Shown one piece after another: positions 36,370 through 39,705 of a DNA stretch of 64,000 nucleotides. The notes under the pieces are model-generated. The model worked only from the letters and a program-made list of their open reading frames with translations. It ran no database searches and had not been told where the DNA came from. Every line of letters starts with the position of its first letter. The first letter of the stretch is position 1. This DNA comes from the human T2T-CHM13v2.0 reference genome, Homo sapiens. The stretch lies in NCBI RefSeq assembly GCF_009914755.1, contig NC_060927.1; one strand, 5' to 3'. Position numbers and translations under genes: made by a program.

Positions 36370-36431
36370 GTGGTCTCCACTCCTGAGATCCAGAAGTGTG
36401 AAGACAGGGCTGTGGCCTGGCTCAGGCAACG
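36370..36431 (+). repeat. Inverted partial copy of MELTF exon 9 within intron 9
   Basis: 52/62 nt ungapped identity to exon 9 sense sequence (39679-39618). Confidence 0.9.
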
Positions 36432-37227
36432 CGGTGTGGGGAGGCTCATACAGCACATCCCGGCTGGTGACTTTGGGCAAGTTACTTCCCCAGCCTCTCT
36501 CTCCCCGGTTCCAGACCCAGAAGTGGGGCTGATGGTCACAGCCACCGCCAGGGCTGTTGTGAGGGTTACACGAGATGATCCACACAATGGCCCTCACTGT
36601 GTGGGGCATACGGGGAGTGTCAGCTTGCGCGATGGTCATCGTCGTAAGCCTGGTCACCCTGTATTCTTGCCCGGTCTCCTCTTTGTGGCCTTCCAGTCGA
36701 TGTGGTTCCCTGGCCTGGGCAGAGTTGGCACTGCTGAGGGGCCTGTGCTTGGGGACCCCCTGAGCAGGCCCCACCTACTTGCTCTGAAAACAAAAACTGG
36801 GGAGTGTGAACACCCAAGGGCTGACAGCCGGGGCTCTGGGCCGAGGCTGGACACCTGTGACCACAGCAGTCCTCCCTGACTGCAGGGCCACGGGGGCCCC
36901 CTCTGCATCTGGCGTTAGTCTCCAGGCAGAGAAGAGAACCAGGAAAGAGCTGAACAGGCACTAGAGATCAGGCCAGTGTTTCTAGCTGCGGATGGTGAGC
37001 CTATTCATGGGGGCCAAATCGAGTGGGTCATGACAAGTGTCAGGAAAAAAAGGATTAGAATAGAATACATTAGAAAATAGTGGGTACCATTTGTGTCATA
37101 TCTCTGTATATAAAGGACATACATTTTTAAATTTCTATCTGAAAGAAAAGTTTCCGTTCACTAGATTGTGATCAATGCAAAATGTATTCTGAGTGCTCGG
37201 TGCTGTCAGCAATGCTGAACTTCCCTA

Positions 37228-39140
37228 TGAAAATTCCAATGACATTCTTTACAGAATTAGAAAGAACAATCCTAAACTTTGTATGGAACCACAAGGGACC
37301 CTGAATAGCCAAAGCAATCCTAAGCAAAAAGAACAAAGATAGAGGCATAGAAACGGACATATAGACCAATGATCCAGAATAGAGAACCCAGAAATTAACC
37401 CGCAGTTTTACAGCCAGCTGATTTTTGACAAAGGTTTCAAGAACCTCTTTGGGAAAAGAGTGATCTCTTCTTCAGTGGACGCTGCTGGGAAGAAGCTGAA
37501 TGTCCAAGTGCAGAATGAACGGGGCCCTAAACTACCCCTCACCCAGCACAGGGACCAACTCAAAATGGATGAGAGGCCTAAATGCAGGGCCCAAGACAAT
37601 AAAATTGCTGAAGAGAATATAGGCAAAACGCTTCAGGACATTGGTCTGAGAAAAGATTTTATGAAAAGACCTCGAAAGCATAGGCAACAAAAGCAATAAT
37701 AAGCAAAGGGAATTGTATCAAACAAACAAGTTTCTGCACAGCAGAGAAAACAACGAACAGAGTGAAATGAAGACAGCCTATGGAATGAGAGAAAATATTT
37801 GCAAACTACTCATCCAACAGGGGATTAATATCCAGAATACACATGCAACGGAAACATCTCAACAGCAGAAAACCATCCAACTTAAAAACGGGCAAATGAT
37901 CAGAACAGACGTTTCTCAAAAGAAGACATACAAAATGCCAGCAGCCATCACTGATCATCAGGGAAATGCAAATCAAAGCCACAGTGAGGTATCAGCTCAC
38001 CCCAGTTAGGGTGGCTGTTATCAAAAAGATAAAAAATAACAAATGCTAGTGAGGATGCAGAATAAAGGAAACTCTTACACACCGTTGCTGGGGATGTAAA
38101 CCCGGACAGCCGCTATGGAAAACAGTACGGAAGTCCCTCCACAAACTACAAATCGAACTATTGAATACCATATGGTCCAGTAATCCCACCACTGGGAATC
38201 TGTCCAAAGGAAAGGCAATCAGCCTGTGGAAGGGATGCCCGCACCCCATGTTTATCGCAGCACTGGCCACAATAGCCAGGATGTGGAATCAACCCAGGTG
38301 TCCAACAACAGAGGATGGATAGAGAAAATGTCATTGGCATGCACCGTGGAATACTATTTAGCCATAAAAAAGAATGAAATCCTGTCACTGGCAGCAACAC
38401 GGACGGAACTGGGGGACACCGTGTTATGTGAAATAAGCCAGGCACAGCAAGTTAAACACCATATGTTCCACTCATATGTGGAAGCTAAAAAAAGTTGATC
38501 TCACAGAAGTAAAAAGTAGAACAGAGGATGCTGCAGACTGGGAAGGGTAGGGGAAGGGAGGAATAGGGAGAGTTTTTTTTTTTTTTTTTTTTTTTGAGAC
38601 AGTCTCTCTCTTGTCGCCCAGGCTGGAGTGCAATGGTGTGATCTCGGCTCCCTGCAACCTCCACCTCCCGGGTCCAAGCGATTCTCCTGCCTCAGCCTCC
38701 CAAGTAGTTGGGATTACAACTGTGTGCCACCATGCTCGGCTAATTTTTTTGTACTTTTAGTAGAAACAGAGTTTCACCATGTTGGCCAGGCTGGTCTTGA
38801 ACTCCTAACCTCAAGTGATCCACCCACCTTGGCCTCCCAAAGTGCTGGGATTATAGGTGTGAGCCAATGCACCCAGCCAGGAGAGATAGGAGGAATAAGC
38901 TCCAGTGTTCTATAGACTGTAGGATGACTAGAGTTAACAATAATACATAGTTTCAAACAGGTAGGACGATATTGCATGTTCTCCACACGGAGAAATGAGC
39001 AATGTTTGAGATGATGGTATGTTAATTATTATCCTGCTCTGATCACCATGTATTCTATGTATCAAAACATCAGTATGTATCTCATGAATATGCACAATTA
39101 TTATTTGTCTATTTAGAAAAATCAGGAAAAAAGAAAAAAA
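37228..39140 (+). mobile_element. 5'-truncated L1 (L1MA/L1PB-like) in MELTF intron 9, antisense to the gene, with a nested Alu
   Basis: aaaattccaatgacattcttt...gaatagccaaagcaatcctaagcaaaaagaacaaa; typical 3'UTR and A-tail. Confidence 0.85.
38573..38877 (-). mobile_element. Alu nested in L1
   Basis: Alu consensus with long T-tail. Confidence 0.9.
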
Positions 39141-39324
39141 AAGTCGAACAATGATCCACGCCCACTCTCTATTGCACAAGGGAAGGCTGAGATTCAGAAA
39201 GGGGAAGGGGCTTGCCCCAGGCTACAGGGCGTCAGTGCCCAGCTGGGCCAGCGCTTCTTCTGCTCCTGGCACCCCCACTTAGTGAGGAGCTCCCAGGCTC
39301 TCCAGGGGACTCACCCCTATCTGC

Positions 39325-39432
39325 CTGTCCCCTGGGGTGGGTGCTGGCCCCTGCGGTCGCTCCTCCCCGCCTGTCTCTGTCCCCTGGGGTGGGTGCTGGC
39401 CCCTGCGGTCGCTCCTCCCCACCCGTCTCTGT
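39325..39432. repeat. 52-bp tandem duplication in intron 9
   Basis: ctgtcccctggggtgggtgctggcccctgcggtcgctcctcccc at 39325 and 39377. Confidence 0.9.
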
Positions 39433-39553
39433 GGGCTTGTTGCAGTAGACACTCTCCTCTTCCCCAGGCAGCAGGGGGTGTGGGTAGTAAGAACTGCCCA
39501 GGCACTGCCACCACCCGCCCACCTGGCCCACGCTGCACCTGCGTGACTCCCAC

Positions 39554-39705
39554 CTGGATCCGCTCCATGCAGTGTTGGGGGGACTTGGCTGACACGCACT
39601 GGATCTCTGGCTTGAGCCGCTGCCGGCGGAAGGCCACGGCCATGTCTCCACACTTCTGGATCTCGGGAGTGGAGAGCACACACCAGCGCAGGTAGGGGGG
39701 CAGCC
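39554..39705 (-). CDS. MELTF: Melanotransferrin exon 9 (C-lobe start, RLPPYLRWCVLSTPEIQKC...CMERIQ)
   Basis: CAG acceptor, GTGGGA donor, 152 nt; LRWC motif paralogous to exon 2. Confidence 0.97.

What the first reader, a model, noticed from the sequence alone, without database searches (positions are those of the whole stretch)
36370..39679. Inverted copy of MELTF exon 9 hidden in intron 9: candidate exon-complementary sequence (ECS)
Seen: + strand 36370-36431 (GTGGTCTCCACTCCTGAGATCCAGAAGTGTGAAGACAGGGCTGTGGCCTGGCTCAGGCAACG) matches the exon 9 sense sequence at 39679-39618 (GTGCTCTCCACTCCCGAGATCCAGAAGTGTGGAGACATGGCCGTGGCCTTCCGCCGGCAGCG). Identity is 44/49 and then 52/62 nt with no gaps; the peptides are VSTPEIQKCEDRAVAWLRQR vs LSTPEIQKCGDMAVAFRRQR. 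Weaker similarity may extend back to about 36329, across the acceptor region. It is not a repeat family I recognise. Because MELTF is on the minus strand, the pre-mRNA carries exon 9 and, about 3.2 kb downstream, its reverse complement; the gap is about 1.3 kb without the intervening L1. Two mismatches would be G:U pairs and two (CpG-type C>T) would be A:C mismatches. Established: intronic ECSs pairing with exons direct ADAR recoding (e.g. GRIA2), and long-range pairing can alter splicing. Inference: the duplex would loop out the exon 9 donor and could modulate inclusion or editing of the first C-lobe exon (152 nt, so skipping frameshifts). Alternatively it is a neutral fossil of an inverted micro-duplication.
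Basis: partly seen in the sequence, partly recalled or inferred. Interest (0 to 1): 0.8.

Follow-up and report, generated by a model that had tools for sequence, protein, structure and literature searches.

The report
Chimeric inverted patch in MELTF intron 9
A 115-base stretch inside an intron of the human melanotransferrin gene is a patchwork of backwards copies of part of exon 9 and part of intron 10, most likely an old replication or repair scar that could pair with the gene's RNA but has no shown function.

Summary
Window 36370-36431 (+) matches the sense sequence of MELTF exon 9 (39679-39618) at 52/62, with 44/49 in the core. BLAST E is 2.5e-13 in the window, and the whole T2T genome holds only these two places.

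The copy is not a simple micro-duplication. It is the middle of a chimeric patch, 36317-36431:
- 36317-36361 is an inverted copy of intron 10 (34113-34157), 39/45, E 1.6e-9.
- 36420-36431 continues that intron-10 copy at 11/12, better than its 8/13 fit to exon 9.
- The exon-9 piece (about 36362-36419) sits between them. The same 7-mer precedes it and ends it, and 4- and 6-base microhomologies lie at the two joins.

This is the signature of microhomology-mediated template switching or templated insertion.

In silico the pre-mRNA forms both duplexes at once, 60 bp with exon 9 and 42 bp with intron 10, looping out the exon 9 donor and all of exon 10. Pair-keeping substitutions show no excess, no paper reports MELTF editing or circRNA, and no other species' genome was available. 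So conservation, editing and splicing effects are untested.

Verdict: real feature, probably a neutral relic. A function as ECS or RNA bridge remains an unproven minority reading.

The parts
36317..36361 (+). Left arm of the patch: inverted copy of intron 10 (34113-34157). In the pre-mRNA it is complementary to that intron-10 stretch.
   Evidence: 39/45 identical, BLASTN E 1.6e-9. RNAduplex -91.4 kcal/mol against -38.9 +/- 5.1 for 500 shuffles. 42 bp kept in the 5.7-kb MFE.
36362..36419 (+). Exon-9-derived insert: inverted copy of the 5' part of exon 9 (about 39688-39631). It ends in a 7-mer (36413-36419) identical to the 7-mer just before the insert (36355-36361).
   Evidence: Core 36370-36418 is 44/49 identical. 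The gapped extension reaches 36364. The direct 7-mer repeat was located. Only 2 nt (36362-36363) separate the intron-10-derived and exon-9-derived alignments.
36420..36431 (+). Right arm of the patch: continuation of the intron-10 copy (34108-34097), skipping 4 nt that are present in intron 10.
   Evidence: 11/12 against intron 10, 8/13 against exon 9. Its 10-mer occurs 3 times in the window against 0.33 expected, and 2 of the 3 are these two places.
39618..39690 (-). Source and pairing partner in exon 9 (exon 39554-39705). It starts 15 nt after the acceptor and ends 64 nt before the donor. It encodes the start of the C-lobe transferrin domain.
   Evidence: 60 bp to the patch in the 5.7-kb MFE.
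34097..34157 (-). Source or pairing partner in intron 10. It lies 729 nt after the exon 10 donor and, counted from 34113, 111 nt before exon 11.
34887..34983 (-). Exon 10 (97 nt), which lies inside the 2159-nt loop closed by the patch / intron-10 duplex.
   Evidence: Hub annotation; distances computed; MFE.

Best explanation
The 62-nt inverted exon-9 copy is the middle of a ~115-nt chimeric patch (36317-36431) written into MELTF intron 9 from two nearby templates, both in inverted orientation. The templates are a stretch of intron 10 (2.2 kb away) and the 5' part of exon 9 (3.2 kb away). The exon piece interrupts the intron-10 copy exactly at a 7-mer that is repeated at both ends of the insert, with 4-nt and 6-7-nt microhomologies between the templates at the joins. 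The most likely mechanism is microhomology-mediated template switching during replication or break repair (FoSTeS/MMBIR-type, or polymerase-theta-type templated insertion). It happened in one event with several switches or in two steps, tens of millions of years ago. Since then the patch has decayed like neutral intron DNA. As a by-product, the pre-mRNA can in principle form a two-armed duplex (exon 9 / patch / intron 10), but no selected function is shown. What is shown: the matches, their adjacency, the junction repeats and the predicted duplexes. What is inferred: the mutational mechanism, the age and the neutrality.
For: Matches: exon pair 52/62, E 2.5e-13; intron pair 39/45, E 1.6e-9. Only 2 nt lie between the two alignments. 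The tail 36420-36431 fits intron 10 at 11/12 against 8/13 for exon 9, and the same 7-mer sits at 36355-36361 and 36413-36419. The tail 10-mer occurs 3 times in the window against 0.33 expected. The element is not a dispersed repeat: 2 of 2 genome places are itself and exon 9, and the flanks and the intron-10 stretch each found only themselves. Decay looks neutral. Wobble pairs make up 2 of 10 and 3 of 6 mismatches, against roughly one third expected from random substitution (my reasoning; classes derived by hand). CpG-to-TpG/CpA differences occur on the patch side (36384, 36411) and on the intron-10 side (34151, 34135). Synonymous-type differences are 4 of 10 (hand count). The patch has no Rfam family. 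The open frames over it have no Pfam family. No RefSeq functional element at the patch appears in the hub's table, although one silencer is left unnamed there. No paper was found on MELTF editing or circRNA.
Against: Neutrality is not demonstrated, because no other species' genome could be searched. Presence or absence in outgroups, substitution rate relative to the flanks, and covariation are therefore all unknown. The predicted duplexes are very stable and survive global MFE folding, so an RNA-level effect cannot be excluded. The direction of copying between intron 9 and intron 10 is unknown. The 4 nt missing from the patch needs an extra indel. Counts of 10 and 6 mismatches are too small for a real test of pairing selection.
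Confidence: 0.78

Rival explanations
1. Functional long-range RNA bridge. The patch pairs at once with exon 9 and intron 10, looping out the exon 9 donor (3186-nt loop) and the whole of exon 10 (2159-nt loop). It thereby tunes splicing: skipping of exon 10 (97 nt, frameshift), of exons 9+10 (249 nt, in frame), or back-splicing of exon 10.
For: Both helices form together in the MFE of the 5.7-kb stretch, 60 bp and 42 bp. Energies are -109.5 and -91.4 kcal/mol against about -40 +/- 5 for shuffles. The arms flank exon 10, and 152+97 = 249 nt. Long-range complementary pairs associated with splicing are an established class (PMC8052449, search listing and abstract only).
Against: The hub's transcript table shows no such isoform. 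0 papers mention a MELTF/MFI2 circRNA. MELTF/MFI2 is absent from the 3 held supplement files of PMC8052449, though the full catalogue may not be in those files. Wobble substitutions show no excess. MFE folding ignores proteins, kinetics and co-transcriptional splicing.
Confidence: 0.07
2. ADAR exon-complementary sequence. The exon 9 / patch duplex recruits ADAR and recodes codons at the start of the C-lobe as a selected function. A weaker form is incidental low-level editing with no function, which is compatible with the best explanation and more likely (my estimate about 0.2).
For: The duplex has a 16-bp perfect run next to a 10-bp run, and about 37 bp are interrupted only by one A:C and one G:U (hand reading). 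The complementary arm lies inside intron 9, so it is transcribed before that intron can be removed.
Against: Both A:C mismatches put the A on the intronic arm. No paper links MELTF or MFI2 with editing: 3 papers for 'MELTF' plus 'RNA editing', of which I read the MELTF passage only in the one with 19 editing mentions, where MELTF is just a down-regulated gene; and 1 paper, a cancer review seen only in the listing, for 'MFI2' plus 'A-to-I'. The recoding catalogue PMC8897444 did not come up in the MELTF search, and its supplements were not seen. The estimated age (same order as the local Alu copies) is far younger than the deeply conserved classical recoding ECSs (recalled).
Confidence: 0.03
3. 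Same chimeric patch but a different origin: capture of loose DNA fragments, or of a reverse-transcribed chimeric MELTF pre-mRNA, at a double-strand break by end joining, rather than replicative template switching.
For: Both pieces come from the same transcription unit and have the same orientation. A reverse transcriptase jumping from exon 9 to intron 10 would give the same order (my reasoning).
Against: The exon piece is embedded within the intron-10 copy, which resumes after it (11/12) at the very 7-mer where it left off. This leave-and-return pattern is expected for a polymerase switching templates and not for simple ligation of two fragments. No poly-A or target-site duplication is evident at the outer borders (by eye).
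Confidence: 0.1
4. Chance similarity or an unrecognised repeat family.
For: The region is GC-rich (about 0.62), which inflates short matches.
Against: E 2.5e-13 and 1.6e-9. The two matches are adjacent. Only two places exist in 3.1 Gb.
Confidence: 0.01

Closest known systems
Microhomology-mediated template switching and templated insertions (FoSTeS/MMBIR; short-range template-switch mutations)
   Same: Inverted copies of nearby sequence; several templates joined in one patch; 4-7-nt microhomology at the joins; return to the first template at the point of departure. Papers seen in search listing and abstract only: PMC8421209, PMC7954356, PMC8794818, PMC10710096.
   Different: The templates lie 2.2 and 3.2 kb away. 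As I recall, this is farther than the tens to hundreds of bases of typical short-range template switches, while the patch itself is far smaller than clinical FoSTeS/MMBIR rearrangements. One template is a coding exon of the same gene. The event is ancient and fixed, not de novo.
ADAR editing/exon-complementary sequences (e.g. GRIA2 Q/R and R/G sites; recalled, not tested here)
   Same: An intronic stretch downstream of an exon that can base-pair with the exon in the pre-mRNA.
   Different: No editing evidence, no conservation evidence, a 3.2-kb spacing, and an origin as a literal inverted copy of the exon inside a chimeric patch.
Pairs of conserved complementary regions / RNA bridges in human pre-mRNAs (PMC8052449; ATE1 example PMC7797038; listing and abstracts only)
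   Same: Long-range intramolecular helices that loop out exons or splice sites. Here two helices share one central strand.
   Different: Conservation, the defining criterion of that catalogue, is untested. MELTF/MFI2 was not found in the 3 supplement files held.
Inverted intronic repeats flanking circularised exons (usually Alu pairs; recalled)
   Same: 36317-36361 and 34113-34157 are reverse-complementary and flank exon 10.
   Different: A 45-nt unique sequence rather than 300-nt Alus. Exon 10 is only 97 nt. No MELTF circRNA was found in print.

Membership tests
Template-switch / templated-insertion mosaic | The inserted segment matches a nearby template, often in inverted orientation | tested here: met
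   Exon 9 at 3.2 kb, 44/49 core; intron 10 at 2.2 kb, 39/45 + 11/12; both inverted.
Template-switch / templated-insertion mosaic | Microhomology between templates at the switch points | tested here: met
   A 4-nt motif is shared by the intron-10 end and exon 9 at join 1. A 6-7-nt motif is shared at join 2. The same 7-mer sits at 36355-36361 and 36413-36419.
Template-switch / templated-insertion mosaic | More than one template joined, with return to the first template | tested here: met
   The order is intron 10, exon 9, intron 10.
Template-switch / templated-insertion mosaic | An ancestral (outgroup) state lacking the patch | not testable with these tools
   Only the human T2T assembly is held; it 'has no relatives here'.
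ADAR exon-complementary sequence | An intronic sequence able to form a stable duplex with the exon | tested here: met
   -109.5 kcal/mol against -40.9 +/- 4.9 for shuffles. 51 and 60 bp kept in the global MFEs. In silico only.
ADAR exon-complementary sequence | Observed A-to-I editing in the paired exon | not testable with these tools
   No RNA-seq or REDIportal access. Literature searches found no report of MELTF or MFI2 editing (the single MFI2 paper was seen in the listing only).
ADAR exon-complementary sequence | Conservation of both arms, with pairing maintained | not testable with these tools
   No other genomes available. Within human, 2 of 10 mismatches are wobble pairs, which is no excess.
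Interspersed repeat family | Many dispersed copies in the genome | tested here: not met
   2 of 2 scored genome places are itself and exon 9. By contrast, 37222-38560 gave 20,795 first-look candidates.
Exon-flanking inverted repeats that drive back-splicing or skipping | Complementary sequences in both introns flanking an exon | tested here: met
   36317-36361 and 34113-34157 flank exon 10, at 1333 nt and 729 nt from it.
Exon-flanking inverted repeats that drive back-splicing or skipping | An observed circular or exon-skipped isoform | not testable with these tools
   None in the hub's transcript table; 0 papers; no RNA-seq access.

The most novel reading that the evidence does not exclude
A primate-age template-switch accident created, in one stroke, a two-armed RNA bridge that pairs with both exon 9 and intron 10 of the MELTF pre-mRNA. 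That bridge has since been co-opted to gate exon 9/10 inclusion (for example the in-frame 249-nt skip) or to direct ADAR to the first codons of the C-lobe. It would be a worked example of how an exon-complementary regulatory element is born by literal inverted copying of the exon.
Probability: 0.06. Interest if true: 0.65.

Novelty: new member of a known kind. Interest (0 to 1): 0.3.

Why it matters
If it is only a relic, it is a clean, datable example of a multi-template, microhomology-mediated inverted insertion. The insertion copied part of a coding exon into the gene's own intron, which is useful for cataloguing template-switch mutations beyond the short range. If the duplexes act in vivo, it would show that such accidents can create exon-complementary or exon-looping RNA structures ready-made. 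That bears on the open question of where ADAR ECSs and long-range splicing helices come from. For MELTF itself nothing here suggests a change to the known gene model.

Tried and rejected
1. Extending the exon match across the exon 9 acceptor. A gapped local alignment stops at 36364/39688, so this was rejected.
2. Extending the intron-10 match. A permissive alignment stretched leftwards to 36003, but outside the 45-nt core it is a weak, heavily gapped match. The total score of 35.5 (null maximum 23) comes mainly from that core. To the right, the score of 17.5 is within the null maximum of 21. I therefore do not claim a larger inverted duplication.
3. Repeat-family explanation. Genome searches with the patch, both flanks and the intron-10 stretch returned only themselves, plus exon 9 for the patch. 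That search also missed the 45-nt intron pair, so it is blind to short or old repeats.
4. Rfam scan of 33500-40500 at E <= 1. Of 5 matches none is at the patch: 4 lie in the Alu and 1 is a weak IRES_HIF1 match at 36830-36899.
5. Coding gene on the + strand. A 226-codon stop-free frame (36199-36879) carries the copy in frame, but it has no Pfam match, and neither does a 220-codon frame on the other strand. In 62% GC DNA this is unremarkable.
6. Literature. 'MELTF' + 'RNA editing' gave 3 papers. I read the MELTF passage of one, where MELTF is only a differentially expressed gene, and judged the other two from their titles and abstract starts. 'MFI2' + 'A-to-I' gave 1 cancer review, seen in the listing only. 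Five circRNA name forms gave 0 papers. 'exon complementary sequence' + 'inverted duplication' gave 0 papers.
7. Supplements of PMC8052449: 3 files held, 0 occurrences of MELTF/MFI2. The supplements of PMC8897444 (recoding catalogue) were not seen. Any of these may list MELTF sites or pairs.
9. The stretch right of the patch (about 36450-36600) reminded me of a MIR element. This is recall only, and no tool confirmed it; local BLAST to other window copies was at noise level.
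Full report
**1. Observation**

- Ungapped identity of 36370-36431 (+) with the reverse complement of 39618-39679 is 52/62. 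It is 44/49 over 36370-36418.
- BLASTN gives E 2.5e-13. The repeat finder lists the pair as I1 of 14 inverted pairs in 34000-41000, and the other 13 are 20-23-nt chance-level pairs.
Exon 9 encodes positions 1-44 of the Pfam Transferrin domain, the start of the C-lobe.
- A search of the whole assembly (3.1 Gb) with 36300-36450 found two places only, the query itself and exon 9.
- Among the 16 MELTF exons, only exon 9 has a copy in the window that is not N-lobe/C-lobe paralogy.

**2. What is really there**

The copy is not an isolated micro-duplication.
- Directly to its left, 36317-36361 is an inverted copy of 34113-34157 in intron 10, 39/45 with E 1.6e-9.
- Only two bases (36362-36363) separate that alignment from the gapped start of the exon-9 alignment at 36364.
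The exon match stays inside the exon (39688 against the exon start at 39705), and what lies to the left comes from intron 10.
They match exon 9 at only 8/13.
- The 10-mer involved occurs 3 times in the window against 0.33 expected, and two of the three are exactly these places.

The patch therefore reads intron-10 copy, then exon-9 copy, then the intron-10 copy resumed. The exon-derived insert (about 36362-36419) ends in a 7-mer (36413-36419) identical to the 7-mer just before the insert (36355-36361). Six of its seven bases are also present in exon 9 at the corresponding place. At the first join, a 4-base motif is shared by the end of the intron-10 stretch and exon 9.

A permissive alignment ran leftwards to 36003, but outside the 45-nt core the match is weak and full of gaps. 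To the right nothing exceeded the shuffle null. I therefore claim no larger inverted duplication.

**3. Origin**

The patch has four notable properties:
- inverted copies of nearby sequence;
- two templates in one patch;
- departure from and return to the first template at the same short motif;
- microhomology at both joins.

Together these are the hallmarks of polymerase template switching (FoSTeS/MMBIR-type replication or repair, templated insertion). I know this class from established knowledge.

A one-event history with several switches and a two-step history are both possible. In the two-step version an inverted intron-9/intron-10 duplicate forms first, and the exon-9 templated insertion at the 7-mer comes later. 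The direction of copying between introns 9 and 10 is open.

Fragment capture by end joining, or a reverse-transcribed chimeric RNA, is a weaker rival. The intron-10 copy resumes after the exon piece, which simple ligation does not explain.

**4. Age (inference)**

- The intron pair differs at 6/45 plus 1/12, and the exon core at 5/49.
- The Alu in the same intron (38573-38878) is 76-85% identical to its full-length relatives in the window. It was labelled Alu from partial SRP-RNA matches on the minus strand and from its roughly 20 full-length relatives in the window among about 37 Alu-type alignments.
It gave 20,795 first-look candidates, of which 40 were scored.

By this internal yardstick the patch is of the same order of age as the Alu copies, and younger than the 37222-38560 repeat. 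That repeat was therefore probably already between exon 9 and the patch when the patch arose. With recalled primate substitution rates this means tens of millions of years, probably within primates. The error bars are very wide because the counts are so small.

**5. RNA-level consequences (in silico only)**

MELTF is on the minus strand, so the patch is antisense to its sources within the same pre-mRNA.
- RNAduplex gives -109.5 kcal/mol for exon 9 against the patch (500 dinucleotide shuffles: -40.9 +/- 4.9, minimum -57.3).
- It gives -91.4 kcal/mol for the patch against intron 10 (shuffles: -38.9 +/- 5.1).
- The MFE of the 3.5-kb stretch 39760-36280 keeps 51 exon-9/patch pairs.
- The MFE of the 5.7-kb stretch 39760-34050 keeps both helices at once, 60 and 42 pairs.
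- The result is a two-armed bridge. Loop 1 (3186 nt) holds the rest of exon 9, its donor and most of intron 9. Loop 2 (2159 nt) holds the end of intron 9, all of exon 10 and 729 nt of intron 10. Exon 11 starts 111 nt after the last helix.
- Exon 10 alone is 97 nt. Exons 9+10 are 249 nt, so a joint skip would stay in frame.

MFE folding ignores proteins, kinetics and co-transcriptional splicing. These results show only that pairing is possible.

**6. Is there any sign of selection or use?**

Mismatch classes, derived by hand from the differences:
- Exon pair: 2 G:U, 2 A:C (A on the intronic arm), 6 other.
- Intron pair: 3 G:U, 2 A:C, 1 G:G.

Random substitution would make roughly one third of changes wobble pairs (my reasoning), so pair-keeping changes show no excess, though the numbers are tiny. 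CpG decay is seen on the patch and on the intron-10 partner. In the old reading frame, 4 of 10 differences are synonymous-type, which is not distinguishable from neutral.

Other checks:
- No Rfam family lies at the patch. No Pfam family matches the open frames over it. No RefSeq functional element at the patch appears in the hub's table, although one silencer is left unnamed there.
- Full-text searches found nothing on MELTF/MFI2 editing or circRNA. They found no paper pairing 'exon complementary sequence' with 'inverted duplication'.
- MELTF/MFI2 is absent from the 3 held supplement files of the conserved-pairing catalogue PMC8052449.
- The supplements of PMC10691357 and PMC8897444 could not be seen because paper reading closed. 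Either might bear on this.
- No other species' genome is held, so conservation and covariation, the decisive evidence, are untested.

**7. Comparison and verdict**

The patch is best filed as a new example of a known mutational kind: a microhomology-mediated, multi-template inverted insertion. Three of the four defining features were tested and met. The fourth, an ancestral empty site, is not testable here.

It works like an ECS or an RNA bridge only in the sense that the geometry and thermodynamics allow pairing. Membership of either class needs editing, duplex reads or conservation, and none of these could be tested.

My estimates:
- About 0.78 that it is a neutral relic, possibly with incidental low-level ADAR editing (about 0.2).
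- About 0.07 for a selected splicing or looping role.
- About 0.03 for a selected recoding ECS.

Interest is modest. The double complementarity and the clean switch-and-return anatomy are a nice curiosity and make the functional question easy to test, but nothing yet shows function.

Noticed in passing
window 36199-36879 (+) and 36112-36774 (-): Stop-free frames of 226 and 220 codons run over the patch, and the + frame carries the exon-9 copy in frame. Neither has a Pfam match. The local GC of about 0.62 makes such frames unremarkable.
   Followed up: partly
window 37222-38560 (+): High-copy old interspersed repeat (20,795 first-look candidates genome-wide, 40 scored, mostly 72-76% identity). 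It is A-rich on the + strand, so it is antisense to MELTF.
   Followed up: partly
window 38573-38878: Alu-type element with its T-run at 38577-38597 on the + strand, so it is in sense orientation in the MELTF transcript. It shows partial SRP-RNA and mir-1268/mir-3135 matches, all below gathering score. Oppositely oriented copies lie at 30127-30428 and 41783-42078 within the gene, giving much longer potential duplexes than the patch.
   Followed up: no
window 36450-36600 (+): By recall only, the stretch just right of the patch resembles the core of a MIR SINE. If true, the patch abuts or interrupts a MIR, which would help to date it. No tool confirmed this.
   Followed up: no
exons 41292-41479 / 30738-30925 and 45593-45660 / 32846-32913: The N-lobe and C-lobe exon pairs 7/14 (71.6% over 116 nt) and 6/13 (69.8% over 63 nt) still align at the DNA level. 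This is the ancient internal duplication of transferrins.
   Followed up: no
window 39554-39705 and 34887-34983: Exons 9 and 10 together are 249 nt, so a joint skip would be in frame and remove 83 residues at the start of the C-lobe. No such isoform is in the hub's table.
   Followed up: no
window 37948-38127 vs 10275-10447: A 181-nt direct match at 71% (E 8e-17), probably two copies of the same old repeat family, one of them near the RPSA pseudogene region.
   Followed up: no
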